A DNA stretch of 64,000 nucleotides, taken from NCBI GenBank assembly GCA_964016885.1, contig OZ024741.1:308326001-308390000 (forward strand), given 5' to 3'. The position numbers were made by a program, and so were the translations under genes. Each line of letters opens with the position of its first letter. The stretch's first letter is position 1. Of this stretch, positions 9,564 through 24,112 are shown in pieces. A model generated the notes under the pieces. It was given only the letters and a program-made list of their open reading frames with translations. It was not told where the DNA came from and searched no databases. Source of the stretch: Eledone cirrhosa (lineage: Eukaryota).

Positions 9564-9638
9564 GGCGCACCCGAACTACACCGATGTCCTGTATTTCAGC
9601 GCCGAAACATCGGTTCAGGAAACATTTACAGCTGACGA
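9564..9638 (+). ncRNA. Permuted (reverse-order) hammerhead-like motif, copy A1
   Basis: GGCGC...ACCGATGT-C-CTGTA-tttcaGCGCC-GAA-ACATCGGT-...-TACAG-CTGACGA: stem III 8 bp, stem I 5 bp, GUC site. Confidence 0.6.
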
Positions 9639-10331
9639 TGGAAACTCCTTTCTTCCTTTCTCCTCCTGTTCCGTCCTAACCACCATCCTAAACCTTATTT
9701 TTAGTAACCACACAGCTCCTTTCGTTTCATAACTTTTTATATTTACCGCTGTGACCCTACCTGCTTTGGTCGATCTGTGTTCCCTCCACACTTTCGCATC
9801 GACCCTCCCTTCTGTCTTCCCTTCTCCTCCTCACTCTCGTTTTTTTTTTCTCTCCCTCTCTCTCTCTATCCATCCGTTCGGTTTTGATTGTTGACGTATT
9901 TACACGTGCCGTGGTGGCCTCTCTGTCCGCAATCTTTGCGGCATGTTTTTACCACCGTTGTAAAGAAACCCTTCTGCATTTTCTCCCTTTCCCTTCTCCT
10001 CCTCACTTTTGGTTGCCCGTGTCTCTCTCTCTCACTTTCTCCTATCTATGTGAGAAGCAGCACGATTATACCAGCTCTGAGTCGTAGCTGACCACCAGGC
10101 TAAAGTCTCCCAGGTTGGCCACAACTTACTTTCCCTATTTTTCCACGGTTACATTTTTGCATGTTTCTTTCACCTGTGTCTTCCCACGATGGGACCTGTA
10201 CACATTTTTTCTTCTATTCCTTTCCTATTTTCCCCTTCTTCCTCCTTTCCCTCTCTTTCCTTTTTACTCTCCTCTTTTTCTCTCTTTCTCTCTCCTTTTC
10301 CAACTGGCTTTTTGATTAATAAAAGGCCTCG

Positions 10332-10406
10332 GGCGCACCCGAACTACACCAATGTCCTGTATTTCAGCGCCGAAACATCAGTTCGGGAAACATTTACAGC
10401 TGACGA
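10332..10406 (+). ncRNA. Permuted hammerhead-like motif, copy A2
   Basis: Same as A1, with two CpG-type transitions in distal stem III (ACCAATGT/ACATCAGT). Confidence 0.55.
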
Positions 10407-10844
10407 TGGAAACTCCTTTCTTCCTTTCTCCTCCTGTTCCGTCCTAACCACCAACTTAAACCTTATTTTTAGTAACCACACAGCTCCTTTCGTTTCATAA
10501 CTTTTTTGTATATATATATATATATATATATATATATATATATATATATATATAAATGAGAATTTTATTTCTCCCCCTAGCACAGCTGATACATAAATGT
10601 AAGCATGCATGCGTACATATATATACATACATTCACATATATACATACACATATATGTGTGTATGTATGCATACTTACATTTATATATGTGTGTGTGTAT
10701 ATATATATGTGCGTGCGTGTGTATGTATGTGTGTATATATGTATATATGTATGTATGTATATGTGTGTGTGTGTGTGTGTGCGCGCGCGTGTGTATGGGT
10801 GAGAGTGTGTGAGTGTGTGTGTAAGTGTTTGTGTGTGTATGTAT

Positions 10845-11951
10845 TCTGTTTTGGCTCAGTTCTTTGGTGACATTTGCATGAATTTAGTAAAAGAGGCATA
10901 AGTTACGAAAGAAGAGGTTCATATAAGATAAGGTTGGCTACAATAATAACCTTTAGATGCTTCTTGACGCAACTTCTTAATGAAACCGCCGTTATCTTCG
11001 GGGACTGCTTCAATACAAGGTCTTAAATGTTGACATGTCCGAATCAGATGATCTTTCTCTATTTTGGACATTGTGCTAGTTATGGCGAAATTCAAAGATT
11101 TTATAGTGTTATGAGGGTGTTGATTGACTTCTCTTTCGATAAGGCCCCATAAACAGTAGTCTAACAGATTCAGATCTGGAGAGCTTGGAGAGCTTAGGGT
11201 GACAAGATCGTAGAGATTGTGACTACTCCATTCTTGGAACATCATGGTCTTATGAGAAAAACTAAAGTATTCCAGGCTCAACAAGCGCTTTTCATGGATC
11301 AAGCGGTTATATTTTGTCCTTCCAGACATGAAGTGGCCTCTTCACATCGCAAATCAATTGTATAGAAGGTCATCATACAACAACATTCTTCCAATAATGT
11401 ACCTTACAATATTGGTTTCTGATTTAGGCACAAGGCCAGCAATTTTGGGGGAGAAGAAAGTCAATTAAATCGACCTTCAGTGCATTACTGGTACTTTATT
11501 TTATTGATGAAAAGCAAAGCTGACCTCGGCGAGATTTAAACATGTTGTCCGATTCTCACCAATATTGCCAATATTACCAATCCATCGTCTTATACCTTGA
11601 AATATTGAGATCCTTAGCAACGGCACTAGTTGAATTTCTACGGTTCTCAACGATATTTTTGCACCTTCCGTAGCATTTCCTTGTCTTCGTTGTATTAGGA
11701 CGCTTAGCAGGCGATTTACGTTGGGCTACTGTTGTAGAACCCTCATCAGCGGCTTCCAGCATTTTGCATACTTTGATAACAACTGCCTGCACAACTTTCA
11801 GGAAATGAGCAACCTTACTATGTTTAGCCTTTTCACTTGCTGGGTTAGCTTGATGTCTGCCATTTTTTATCTGAAAAGAAATAGGAATCAAAACATGTTA
11901 GAAAAAGGTGAGAGCTATTATATATGTCCTCAAAGAACTGACAACCCTGTA
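10845..11951 (-). mobile_element. Decayed Tc1/mariner (maT-like) DNA transposon
   Basis: Minus-strand SSPDLNLLDYCLWG...EAVPEDNGGFIK is the DDE/D C-terminus, and 11574-11891 is an HTH-like N-terminus. Imperfect TIRs CAGTTCTTTGGTGACA (10857) and TGTCCTCAAAGAACTGACAACCCTG followed by TA (11925-11951). Confidence 0.8.
11410..11575 (-). mobile_element. tRNA-derived SINE (internally deleted) inserted in the transposon
   Basis: Reverse complement of the SINE core and tail (GGCACAAGGCCAGCAATTT...TGGTACTTTATTTTAT). Confidence 0.8.
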
Positions 11952-20800: not shown

Positions 20801-23113
20801 TCGCCCAAGGCCCTGAGCCGAACCGCCCTCCCCATTTTTCTGTGTCATTAGAGCCCTTGCCTTTCCCTTCCTTTTCCATTTTTTTTTAATATTTATTTTA
20901 CATTCCATTATTTCATGTCTTAATTATAAATGTTCTAAAGAGACTGAAATATTTATGAAAGCCAGCCATAGAAGAACCAATTGCTAGCGTTATAGACAAC
21001 CAATAGAGAGGTAACGAGGTAGGGTCTTTACGCAATAAAAATAGTAGCGAAATCTGCAAATCATACTCAACCGGTTAAAAATAACAGCCTCACTAGAATA
21101 ACATAATCTTAAGTATTACAAAAATATGGGATTATCAAGACTGGGTCACATTTTCAGCATACAACGACTCACTTAGTTTTGACCTAGGGCTAAACAAGAA
21201 CAATAACCCACACAAACATACCCCCACACACACATATGCACACGTGCACACACAAACATACCCCCACACACACATATGCACACGTGCACACACAAACATA
21301 CCCCCACACACATATATATATGTATATATATATATATATATAATATATATATATCGTATTATATATATGTATGCGTGTATATATATATATATATATATAT
21401 ATATATATATATATATATATATATATATATATTTATATATGCGTATATATATATGCACACATATATATATATGTGTGAACCAAAAGTCGGGAGATTTGTG
21501 TGTATACGTGTATTATATGCATATATGTATATATGTATGGATGCATATATATACACACACACACATCCTCATCTTTGTTCTAGATTCTAATCTTATCAGT
21601 ATCTAGTCTTCCTTTCATCCCTATAGGGGTCAATAAAATGAAAACCAGTGATATACTGAGGTCGAAGGCCATCGATTACAGCCCTACCCTGCGAAGTTTG
21701 TTCTTTTGTCTAGTCATAAAAAGAAACCATAATTGTTGCAATGTCGATCGCTAGGAGAAAGAGATGGCAGCCATTTTGTTTCCTCTCTTTTGAATTTTGT
21801 TTTCCGATCTTCTTGCTTTATTTACCTTTATATTTATATTTATGGTGGTATTTACGCTCCTTTTCCCATGTTTCTTTTCTTGATCTTTTTACATTTACTA
21901 AACGACGCGTCTTGAAAGATAAAGATAAATGGAAAGAGATGTGGATAATGATAGAGATGGGGATGAAGAAAGAAACATGACTGACTGTCTGGCTGACTGA
22001 CTAGCTGACGGTTCAATTAAATGGTAGTAGGAGCTTAGACGTGTGAAGTGTGTGTATGAGCGCGTGTGAACAGCAAGAACAAACGAGAGTGGGGGGAGAG
22101 ATATGGAGGGTGTAGACAAAGGAGAAGGGAGGTAAGAGAGAGGAGTTTACAAACTTGACAAGACCTTAAAATGTTGTTGAACGACCTCTAATAACACAAG
22201 GGGATCTCCGTAGGGAGAAATAAATCTTTGAGAGTTGGCTTATTGCTTGCTTACGCAGTTGAAGTACATGAGTCTTAATGGTGATGGAGGGGGATGTTGA
22301 TGGTGGGTGGTGGGATAGAGATGTTTATGTTGTGTTGGCAATGTCGCAGTGTAAGTCGGTTGGTCGACGGCTTGTGGTAAAAGTGTGACGACGGCGGTGG
22401 TAAAGATTGCGCCGGCAGTTTTCGCTTGTTATGATGTGACCTTTAACACTGTGAGGGACTAGCGAGAATAGGAGTGTATATAGGGGAAGCGGGGGTGGTA
22501 GAATATAAACAGAATTACGAAGACAGGCAGACAGGCAGAAACCTTGGCAGATGAATAGATAGAAAGACAGATAGTCAGGAAAATAACTTTCTAACTAGAT
22601 CGAAATATATATATACGTATACATACATACATACATATATATATATATATATATATATATATATATATATATATATATATATATATATATATATATATAT
22701 ATATATATATATATATATATATATATACATATATATAGAGAGAGAGGAGGGGATAAATACATATATAGATAATGGATAGATAGGTTAATTGATGCATAGA
22801 TAAATGTACATATAGAGATAGATAGATGGATAAATAATCAATAGATCGAACGATTGATAGATAGATAGATAGATAGGTAAATATATATATATATATATAT
22901 ATATATATATATATATATATATATATATATATATATAGAGAGAGAGAGAGAGAGAGAGAGAGAGAGAGAGAGAGTTTTGATTAAAGGCTTTCCGAATGTG
23001 ACTACATCATTTTGGCTTTATACAGGCTATTACCAGTATCACACTAACCAATGAGTAGTTCTATGTTGTAAAATGGCAGCCCGTCCCCTCAATATATCTT
23101 ATTTCTCATTCTT

Positions 23114-23149
23114 TCTTCTGATGAAGGACTAGCGTCCGAAACGTTAAGA
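23114..23149 (+). ncRNA. Minimal type I hammerhead ribozyme in a pLTR fragment (23068-23229)
   Basis: TCTT-CTGATGA-a-GGAC(tagc)GTCC-GAAACGT-T-AAGA. All stems are intact. Confidence 0.85.
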
Positions 23150-24045
23150 CCCTCTTCCTGTTATATTAAGCGTTAACCTAATATATCCCTTCTATGTACC
23201 GATTGTGTTGTTATTTCTGTTTACCTTTTGCACACACACACACACACATATATATATATATATATATATATATATATATATATATATATATATATATGTA
23301 TACATACATACATACACACATACATACATATATATATATATACATACATATATATACATATATATACGTACACACACACACACACACACACACACACACA
23401 CACATATATATATATATATATATATATATATATATATATATATATATATATATATATATATATATATATATATATATATATATATATATATATATATAGT
23501 ATATATATATATAATACTATTTTATAGATCGATATTCAATACTATAATGCATATAGGCATCAAATGTTTTTTTCGATCTTGCTACTCGAAGACTAAAATT
23601 AGAACGAACTCAATACTATACTGTCGTGAAACGTACATACCCAAACAGAAGATACAAGGACGCTGAGAGGATAAATTCTATAGAAAATGTAATATGCTCA
23701 GGCCCAGGAAATAACTAAGTACAGTAAGGGCATTTACACTATTTTATAGGCTATTTTATAAGAACTGTACTTACAGTTTTTTGCTGCGCCTGAGTATGCT
23801 ATATATATATATATATATATATATATATATATATATATATATATATATATATATATATATATATATATATATATATATATATATACATATATATATATAT
23901 ATATATATATATATATATATATATTTCCTACCTATAGTTGCTCGCCCATTACTCGGTTTGTTGTTGGTTTTTTCGGTGTTTTGTTACTGTTTCTCTTTTC
24001 TTCCCCTTTGCTTCCTTCCCTCCTTCTTCCGTTTTCCCAATAACT

Positions 24046-24112
24046 TATCCAGGCGAGGTATATTGTCTTTAAAGCGTAGAAATATCCGAGACCCCCATTA
24101 GACAACTGATGA
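24046..24112 (+). ncRNA. Permuted hammerhead-like motif, copy C
   Basis: GGTAT-A-TTGTCT-ttaaagcgta-GAA-ATATC-...-AGACAA-CTGATGA, inside an insert between (TA)n tracts. Confidence 0.55.

What the first reader, a model, noticed from the sequence alone, without database searches (positions are those of the whole stretch)
9564..24112. A recurrent hammerhead-like motif with reversed, pseudoknotted strand order
Seen: three different sequences (A at 9564-9638 and 10332-10406, B at 15912-15982, C at 24046-24112) share one layout: [z]-[stem III']-NUH-[stem I']-10 nt ending in z'-GAAA-[stem III]-...-[stem I]-CUGANGA. Stem I differs but always pairs (CTGTA/TACAG, TGATTT/AAATCA, TTGTCT/AGACAA). It abuts H17 and C3 exactly as in a hammerhead. 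Stem III pairs in register with A15.1-U16.1 (ACCGATGT/ACATCGGT, AGGTAT/ATATCT, GGTAT/ATATC). The spacer before GAAA is 10 nt in all three, and GAAA to CUGA is 23-24 nt. The bases before GAAA pair with an upstream segment (GGCGC/GCGCC, ATTGCA/TGCAAT, imperfect in C) rather than with sequence after CUGANGA. Established: types I, II and III are circular permutations that keep the cyclic order CUGANGA->GAAA->NUH, whereas here the order is inverted and the three stems cross. Inference: this may be a hammerhead topology that standard descriptors miss, folding as a multi-pseudoknot or by strand exchange between RNAs. I do not recall a description of it but cannot check the literature.
Basis: partly seen in the sequence, partly recalled or inferred. 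Interest (0 to 1): 0.93.

Follow-up and report, generated by a model that had tools for sequence, protein, structure and literature searches.

The report
Rearranged hammerhead ribozyme in jumping-gene tails
Tens of thousands of copies of a jumping-gene family in this animal genome end in an RNA fold with all the parts of the self-cutting hammerhead ribozyme wired in a scrambled order, which may be the ribozyme that Naiad retroelements were reported to lack, although cutting has not been tested.

Summary
All four loci have the hammerhead blocks in the order cleavage site, GAAA, CUGANGA, with stems I and III in register. That order is published: type SGC (Eckert et al. 2023, cleaves in vitro), found only in metatranscriptomes. 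These copies differ. Stem II takes its 5' strand from upstream of the cut site. An extra closing helix and a hairpin sit between A9 and 10.1, inside a block that paper assumed indivisible. Six helices covary across 21 subfamily representatives (93.5% of cells paired; 19 of 33 pairs with two-sided change). The published SGC stem II fails. A fixed-spacing core pattern gives 27,809 genome matches against 1,844 for the control. The motifs lie near the 3' ends of non-coding, 5'-truncated, tandem or inverted repeats inserted in (TA)n, which is Penelope-like (PLE) anatomy. Read by eye, the same six-helix layout ends eight published Naiad consensi (coral, hydrozoan, box jelly, clam shrimp, octopus) plus one not named, where the authors saw only core words that fit no descriptor. 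Best reading: a new variant of non-circularly permuted hammerhead carried by Naiads and their non-autonomous derivatives. Cleavage, expression and the active partner are not shown. Window copy C is damaged.

The parts
9503..10508 (+). Family A element: non-coding partial tandem (terminal repeat about 9503-9738, repeated at about 10270-10506; period 768 bp), flanked by (TA)n on both sides
   Evidence: 1223 first-look candidates in the genome
9529..9644 (+). Ribozyme-like fold A1: w 9529-34/w' 9639-44; hairpin h 9538-60; stem II z 9564-68/z' 9599-9603 (G10.1-C11.1); y 9570-74/y' 9615-19 (one mismatch); stem III 9580-87/9607-14; stem I 9589-93/9627-31; GAAA 9604-07; CUGACGA 9632-38
9588..9588 (+). 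Predicted cut 3' of C17 (UC) in A1; inferred, not tested
   Evidence: analogy with the hammerhead core; family-A 5' junctions cluster just 3' of this site
10297..10412 (+). Fold A2, the same layout shifted by 768 nt; stem III weakened by two mismatches; predicted cut after C10356
15884..16044 (+). Family B element, 5'-truncated to the ribozyme plus about 60 nt of tail, between two (TA)n runs; all 40 scored matches 100% identical (window's own copy included); unit 514-544 nt in tandem copies elsewhere
15887..15987 (+). Fold B, all six helices intact: w 15887-90/15984-87; h 15891-98/15905-12; z 15912-17/15943-48; y 15918-23/15963-68; III 15926-31/15952-57; I 15933-38/15970-75; GAAA 15949-52; CUGAUGA 15976-82; predicted cut after A15932
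23925..24203 (+). Family C element, 5'-truncated, between (TA)n runs; unit about 576 nt elsewhere
   Evidence: 2268 first-look candidates
24034..24116 (+). Fold C, damaged: keeps stems I (24063-68/24100-05) and III (24057-61/24082-86), GAAA 24079-82, CUGAUGA 24106-12 and w 24034-37/24113-16 (by eye), but lacks about 16 nt near 24052 carrying the 3' arm of h, z and most of y

Best explanation
Each motif is a self-cleaving hammerhead with non-circular strand order, folding within one RNA. Order 5'->3': w - hairpin h - z (the 10.x strand of stem II) - y - 16.x, U16.1, H17 (cut) - 1.x - short linker - z' (11.x), GAAA, 15.x - linker - y' - 2.x - CUGANGA - w'. Helix y/y' joins the far ends of stems I and II in a second three-way junction, as the 'I' helix does in published type SGC. 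The fold equals type SGC/CSG opened between A9 and 10.1, with helix w and hairpin h inserted at the place where SGC-1 has a bulged U. It sits near the 3' end of Naiad-type Penelope-like retroelements and of their short non-coding derivatives (families A-D and more). The inferred job is that of the type I hammerhead in other PLEs and in non-LTR retrozymes: cutting tandem read-through transcripts into unit-length RNAs of about 0.45-0.8 kb that start at the cut. These are then reverse-transcribed into (TA)n by a PLE enzyme in trans. SHOWN: layout, covariation, copy number, PLE-like insertion anatomy. READ BY EYE from a published supplement: the same layout in Naiad tails. INFERRED: cleavage, monomeric 3D fold, expression, Naiad as the mobilising partner.
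For: Covariation on 21 subfamily representatives (54-97% pairwise identity): 93.5% of 693 cells paired, 19 of 33 pairs and 92 cells with two-sided change, 0/500 shuffles as high on these measures, slid controls 27-49% paired; every helix has at least 2 two-sided changes. An unbiased all-pairs mutual-information scan ranks pairs of y, h, I, z, w and III among its top 30. Position 17 is A (12) or C (9) across the representatives; the search pattern excluded G but allowed U. Genome count 27,809 vs 1,844 for the reversed control. Type SGC and CSG cleave in vitro at the analogous site (PMC10085705, main text parts 1-6 of 8). Craig et al. 2021 (PMC8557442, passages) say some Naiads have the catalytic core but fit no descriptor, and mark 'HHR_half_core' cases with GAAA 35-50 nt away on either side. 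In text windows of their consensus file I could pair w, h, z, y, III and I by eye at the 3' ends of Naiad_Obim, _Ovul, _Amil, _Aacu, _Anas, -3_Chem, -2_Movir, _EuTe and one part-12 consensus. All have G10.1-C11.1 supplied by the upstream z strand and different stem sequences; four consensi in parts 13-15 (nematode range) show plain CSG, at least three with the y/y' helix. The Octopus Naiad tail shares the hairpin loop word CTTATTTTAG and its position with the B/D superfamily. Family-A copies joined to (TA)n start at +2..+11 after the predicted cut in 16 of 19 loci, against 3 in -18..+1, and 19 loci start over +9..+36 (P about 0.002 and 0.001 against a flat rate). A U-U mismatch at 10.1-11.1 occurs in type I HHRs listed for Hydra PLEs.
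Against: No cleavage or expression data. In the B/C/D superfamily 10.1-11.1 is not a standard pair via z (2 of 21). The base after A9 pairs with 11.1 in only 13 of 21 (8.1 expected), so many subfamilies lack the canonical G10.1-C11.1. Nested MFE folds give competing hairpins: z/y fold locally in A1/A2, and CUGAUGA is sequestered in B (pseudoknots are not modelled). The count of further standard pair types did not exceed shuffles (356/500), and subfamilies are related, so the shuffle test overstates significance. The representatives were found with a pattern containing the core, so core invariance in A1 is circular. No intact Naiad ORF was found in this genome. In 20 extended Naiad-RT loci the descriptor found no such motif downstream. 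In 14 earlier extensions, about 12 of them Naiad-like, none was seen among the CTGANGA contexts. nhmmer with the B-superfamily and A profiles gave no hit below E=1 in L145-L228. No junction starts exactly at +1, and AT-rich microhomology or RT stalling could produce the junction cluster.
Confidence: 0.68

Rival explanations
1. The same fold cleaves, but only as a domain-swapped dimer or between neighbouring tandem copies (w, z or y exchanged between two units), as minimal PLE hammerheads are known to do (recalled, Lunse et al. 2017, not read).
For: Elements occur as tandem and head-to-head arrays of 2-6 copies. The monomer needs two pseudoknots and a 0-1 nt link between z and y, and Eckert et al. 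note that a similar direct link is hard to fit to the crystal structure.
Against: All helices close inside one copy, with covariation. Published SGC/CSG with the same I-helix junction cleaved co-transcriptionally as single constructs, though concentration dependence was not reported in the parts I read.
Confidence: 0.12
2. The fold descends from a hammerhead, but in these octopus-type non-autonomous families it no longer cuts, or cuts very slowly. It is kept as the 3' RNA handle recognised by the PLE reverse transcriptase or endonuclease.
For: G10.1-C11.1 is lost in the B/C/D superfamily. Most insertions extend 5' past the site, so uncut RNA is often the template. In a 2026 preprint 8 of 9 tested type I retrozyme dimers did not cleave (10.64898/2026.07.22.740005, parts 1-3 of 5).
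Against: The full 13-nt core is present in families with unrelated stems and in Naiads of several phyla. Position 17 alternates between A and C only. 5' junctions cluster after the predicted cut in family A.
Confidence: 0.17
3. The motifs are chance words or assembly rearrangements of an ordinary type I hammerhead.
For: Ordinary minimal type I hammerheads are common in this genome and window.
Against: 1 of 100 shuffles gives any hit. There is a 15-fold genome excess over the control, compensatory changes in six helices, and the same layout in independent published consensi.
Confidence: 0.02

Closest known systems
Type-SGC hammerhead ribozyme (HRIMA-1 and the SGC variant; Eckert, Friedrich, Weinberg & Weinberg 2023, PMC10085705; read main text parts 1-6 of 8, supplement parts 1 and 8 of 42 and search passages; figures not seen)
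   Same: Block order S-G-C, full hammerhead core, crossing stems, a 3-4 nt link from stem I to the 11.x strand, and a helix tying the far ends of stems I and II.
   Different: There stem II pairs with the bases 0-1 nt after CUGAUGA (descriptor; SS_cons and rows). Here it pairs with a strand upstream of the cut site, and a closing helix plus a hairpin sit between A9 and 10.1. SGC was found only in metatranscriptomes, and none in genomes of known organisms; here it is in an animal genome, in DNA, at about 26,000 copies above control.
Type-CSG hammerhead (same paper; two metagenome sequences)
   Same: Same reversed cyclic connectivity and I-helix. By eye, four consensi in parts 13-15 of the Naiad file (nematode range) carry this form.
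   Different: Block C is intact in CSG; the chain ends lie elsewhere.
Naiad clade of Penelope-like elements (Craig, Yushenova, Rodriguez & Arkhipova 2021, PMC8557442; passages, metadata sheet, part 19 and search windows of the consensus file)
   Same: (TA)n targets, 5' truncation, partial tandems, inverted 5' copies, ribozyme-like motif near the 3' end; Octopus Naiad tails have the same fold and a shared loop word.
   Different: The window elements are short and non-coding. The paper reports no canonical HHR in Naiads, only 'core' or 'half-core' words. No intact Naiad was found in this genome.
Metazoan non-LTR retrozymes and PLE pLTR hammerheads (as described in bioRxiv 10.64898/2026.07.22.740005, parts 1-3 of 5; Cervera & de la Pena papers not read)
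   Same: Non-coding tandem units with one ribozyme each, derived from PLE termini.
   Different: Those are defined by type I hammerheads; these carry a non-circular permutation that the type I models used there would not detect.

Membership tests
Hammerhead ribozyme (any permutation) | Core CUGANGA, GAAA, UH with stems I and III abutting in register | tested here: met
Hammerhead ribozyme (any permutation) | A helix (stem II) abutting G12 | tested here: met
   z/z' covaries, 89.5% of cells paired; it abuts G12 directly in A and B, and after one mismatched position in most of the B/C/D superfamily
Hammerhead ribozyme (any permutation) | G10.1-C11.1 closing pair | tested here: inconclusive
   Met in family A and in the published Naiad tails read by eye; not met in the 21 B/C/D-type representatives
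Hammerhead ribozyme (any permutation) | Site-specific self-cleavage 3' of H17 | not testable with these tools
   No RNA run listed; only indirect junction clustering
Types I, II, III (circular permutations) | Cyclic order CUGANGA -> GAAA -> UH | tested here: not met
   The order is UH -> GAAA -> CUGANGA
Type SGC (Eckert 2023) | 5'-3' block order S, G, C | tested here: met
Type SGC (Eckert 2023) | Block C intact: the stem II strand follows CUGANGA within 0-1 nt | tested here: not met
   Pairing 0-19% at three of five positions in both registers; those bases pair with w instead
Type SGC (Eckert 2023) | Helix joining the far ends of stems I and II | tested here: met
   y/y': 5 of 6 pairs with two-sided change, 94.4% paired
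Non-LTR retrozyme | Non-coding tandem units, one ribozyme per unit | tested here: met
   Units of about 445-820 nt, up to 6 in a row; no protein-like ORF in four family-B arrays
Non-LTR retrozyme | Type I hammerhead | tested here: not met
Non-LTR retrozyme | Circular RNA in vivo | not testable with these tools
   No RNA holder listed
Naiad PLE (autonomous) | ORF with N-terminal GIY-YIG and C-terminal RT | tested here: not met
   The window elements are non-coding; only decayed Naiad-RT remnants were found elsewhere
Naiad PLE (non-autonomous derivative) | (TA)n target, fixed 3' end, variable 5' truncation, partial tandem, inverted 5' copy | tested here: met
Naiad PLE (non-autonomous derivative) | 3' end shared with an autonomous Naiad | tested here: inconclusive
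   Same fold and loop word as published Octopus Naiad tails, by eye; no motif next to Naiad remnants in this genome; an exact pattern from the published Octopus tail had 0 matches

The most novel reading that the evidence does not exclude
Many Naiad retroelements, across at least cnidarians, crustaceans, molluscs and nematodes, carry active non-circularly permuted hammerheads. The commonest form builds the catalytic core from four separate strands, with a helix and hairpin inserted between A9 and stem II, a connectivity outside the six-permutation scheme. In this genome it drives a superfamily of retrozyme-like elements with more than 25,000 copies, which would make the 'rare' non-circular hammerhead a common ribozyme of invertebrate genomes.
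Probability: 0.55. Interest if true: 0.86.

Novelty: new variant of a known kind. Interest (0 to 1): 0.76.

Why it matters
(1) Non-circular hammerheads were known from RNA and DNA of unknown hosts plus one doubtful bacterial case; this puts them in animal genomes in bulk and gives them a biological home. (2) It breaks the assumption that CUGANGA and its stem II strand are one block, so there are more permutations than six and current descriptors miss a whole class. (3) It offers a concrete, testable answer to the statement that Naiads lack hammerheads and to the unexplained 'half-core' words noted in 2021, which bears on whether PLEs need a ribozyme at all. (4) Short natural sequences with defined cut sites make cleavage, dimer and structure tests immediate, and the exit helix at A9 is a new place to attach cargo or sensors.

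Tried and rejected
Rfam scan: no hammerhead among the 150 listed of 323 matches. Published SGC stem II: rejected by column counts. The window's own PLE at about 35346-39166 as partner: rejected; it has a C-terminal GIY-YIG-like region and an ordinary type I hammerhead layout near 38853-38975, and Pfam did not recognise its four pieces. An apparent 3.7-kb unit in family B was a larger duplication with no ORF. Search for an autonomous Naiad in this genome: a pattern from the published Octopus tail gave 0 matches. An RT-motif pattern gave 50 matches; of the 30 examined most were off-frame hits in another LINE and about 7 were decayed Naiad-like RT. A protein search gave 80 matches, of which 20 were extended. 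None had the motif downstream, and the other matches were not examined. Sequencing runs: no RNA holder listed, no evidence either way; read laying was not run. A first structure string was mis-registered and replaced. Five rows (L002, L138, L102, L106, L111) were left out of alignment A1, mainly for different spacing or damage, so family A is not in the covariation count. Literature: nine full-text searches found no description of the split form or of non-circular hammerheads in PLEs; subscription papers are not covered. Passages of PMC13725137 mention 'HHR variants containing additional helices' citing three papers; I checked two (PMC10085705; PMC10162972 passages, no such description found) and not the third. 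Eckert's figures and 40 of 42 supplement parts (apart from search passages) were not seen, nor most of Craig's 54 Naiad consensi. Earlier-scan look-ups by sequence, place and two word sets returned nothing.

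
Full report
OBSERVATION. A scan for UH, GAAA and CUGANGA in that order, with stems I and III in register, returns these four loci and no other in the window; 1 of 100 locally shuffled windows gave a single hit. A and A' are two copies of a 768-bp partial tandem. C has lost about 16 nt near 24052 relative to its family, which removes the upstream z strand and explains its 'imperfect' pairing.

WHAT IS KNOWN ABOUT THE ORDER. Eckert et al. 2023 (PMC10085705; I read main text parts 1-6 of 8, supplement parts 1 and 8, and search passages) divide the hammerhead into blocks S, G and C. They show that type SGC and CSG RNAs cleave at the predicted site, with rates of 0.004-0.19 per min. 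They assume block C (stem I strand, CUGANGA, stem II strand) cannot be interrupted, and their patterns need stem II right after CUGAUGA(U)G (alignment rows agree). Apart from one doubtful bacterial GCS case, none was found in genomes of known organisms. So the reversed order is known; the question is whether these are simply SGC.

THEY ARE NOT PLAIN SGC. From pattern-found loci and longer stretches I chose 21 representatives of the B/C/D superfamily, aligned as A1 (54-97% identity). Five rows, including family A, were left out, mainly for spacing or damage. An all-against-all mutual-information scan points to six helices: w (5' end with the bases after A9), hairpin h, z/z' (stem II), y/y', III and I. 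Counted on that structure, 93.5% of 693 cells pair, 19 of 33 pairs change on both sides, and 0/500 shuffles reach the paired fraction, the two-sided counts or the covariation score. Slid partners pair at 27-49%; the number of further pair types does not beat shuffles (356/500). The sequences are related, so these are not independent events. Pairing z' with the bases after CUGANGA, as in SGC, gives 0-19% at three of five positions. Family A forms the same six helices from unrelated sequence, with G10.1-C11.1 (h by MFE). Compared with SGC-1 (oligos), the segment '10.x strand plus I-helix strand' has moved from the 3' end to the 5' end, and helix w plus hairpin h occupy the A9/10.1 position where SGC-1 has one bulged U. 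The weak point: in the B/C/D superfamily 11.1 is A, U or C and does not pair with z (2 of 21). It pairs with the base after A9 in 13 of 21 (8.1 expected by shuffling), so a single contiguous 10.1-11.1 pair may survive in some subfamilies. Nested MFE folds show competing hairpins.

WHERE THEY SIT. The genome is 3.0 Gb with chromosome-scale contigs; I infer an octopus-type animal from repeat content and from likeness to published Octopus Naiads. The three window motifs belong to families with 1223, 833 and 2268 first-look candidates; in these BLAST-found copies 29/30, 30/30 and 26/30 keep all three core words. A fixed-spacing pattern gives 14,116 + 13,693 matches against 853 + 991 for the reversed control, with many different stem I sequences that still pair. 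Copies end at a fixed point about 60-100 nt after CUGANGA in (TA)n and are variably truncated at 5'. They form tandems with units of about 445-820 nt (up to six seen) and head-to-head pairs. Four family-B arrays show no protein-like ORF. This is the anatomy described for Penelope-like elements and retrozymes.

THE NAIAD LINK. Craig et al. 2021 (PMC8557442) report that Naiads insert in (TA)n and lack canonical hammerheads. They add that some have core words fitting no descriptor, including eight 'half-core' cases with GAAA 35-50 nt away on either side; Naiad_Ovul is one. Reading text windows around CTGANGA in their consensus file by eye, I could pair w, h, z, y, III and I at the 3' ends of Naiad_Obim and _Ovul (z GACACC/GGTGTC), _Amil, _Aacu and _Anas (z GGCTCC/GGAGCC), -3_Chem, -2_Movir, _EuTe and one consensus in part 12 whose name I did not establish. 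Each has G10.1-C11.1 from the upstream strand. Four consensi in parts 13-15 show plain CSG. This is 9 plus 4 of 54 consensi; the rest were not examined systematically, and two tails seen look twister-like instead (motif recalled). No computation was run on those sequences. In this genome I found only decayed Naiad RT remnants, one with a GIY-YIG-end motif upstream of RT, and no motif downstream of them. The active partner of the young families, such as B with identical copies, is therefore not identified.

INDIRECT SIGN OF CUTTING. If RNA templates begin at the cut, insertions should often start just 3' of it. For family A (a UC site), of 19 loci joined to (TA)n within -18..+11, 16 start at +2..+11 and 3 upstream (counted by eye). 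Another 19 loci start over +9..+36. The rates are 0.16, 1.6 and 0.68 per nt, with Poisson P about 0.001 and 0.002 against the last. None starts exactly at +1, and microhomology or RT stalling could contribute, so this is suggestive only. One search, for a UA/UC-site subfamily, was not scored because UA sites merge with the target repeat.

MECHANISM AND VERDICT. Most likely (0.68) a monomeric self-cleaving hammerhead of new connectivity that processes tandem transcripts of Naiad-type elements and their non-autonomous derivatives. The rivals are obligate dimer or trans cleavage (0.12), a non-cutting RNA handle (0.17) and chance (0.02). It works like type SGC/CSG but fails the intact-block-C test, so I do not file it as type SGC; it is retrozyme-like but lacks the type I hammerhead. 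Nine literature searches found no description of the split form or of non-circular hammerheads in PLEs, within a library that lacks most subscription papers. Earlier notes of this scan mention rearranged hammerheads and twisters in other Naiad-like elements; they are unchecked and not used as support. New variant of a known kind; interest 0.76.

Noticed in passing
window 35346-39166 (+): Frameshifted Penelope-like element with RT-like and C-terminal GIY-YIG-like pieces, about 80-nt terminal repeats in (TA)n, and a type I hammerhead layout with a long stem II near 38853-38975.
   Followed up: partly
window 12863 (+), 13758 (+), 29388 (-); many loci: Minimal type I hammerhead candidates with a 2-bp palindromic stem III, typical of PLE tails; several families recur in the fetched loci.
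   Followed up: no
PMC8557442 File S5, parts 13-15: Four consensi in the nematode range carry type-CSG hammerheads by eye; CSG was published from only two metagenome sequences.
   Followed up: partly
PMC8557442 File S5, ends of Naiad-1_Movir and Naiad-4_Chem; parts 16-18: Two tails look twister-like (motif recalled). A part-16 consensus shows S-G-C order with yet another arrangement around stem II, suggesting Naiads swap ribozyme types.
   Followed up: no
window 25200-27005 (-): Broken LINE RT (Pfam RVT_1, E 3.6e-17).
   Followed up: no
window 10919-11897 (-) and 45857-46399 (-): Fragments resembling a Tc1/mariner transposase and an RTE-type LINE C-terminus (resemblance recalled).
   Followed up: no
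window 16492-16591, 30277-30361, 39993-40147: Near-perfect inverted repeats that score below threshold as miRNA families; probably head-to-head repeat junctions.
   Followed up: no
window 32020-33930: 27-bp minisatellite, 71 copies, 94% matches.
   Followed up: no
L166 (G000:C3:114888246-114891268, -): Long open PLE RT plus start of a C-terminal nuclease region of another clade; a possible active PLE in this genome.
   Followed up: no
window 9561-9574 and 15979-15991: Local hairpins that compete with z/y (family A) or bury CUGAUGA (family B) could act as off-switches for cleavage.
   Followed up: no
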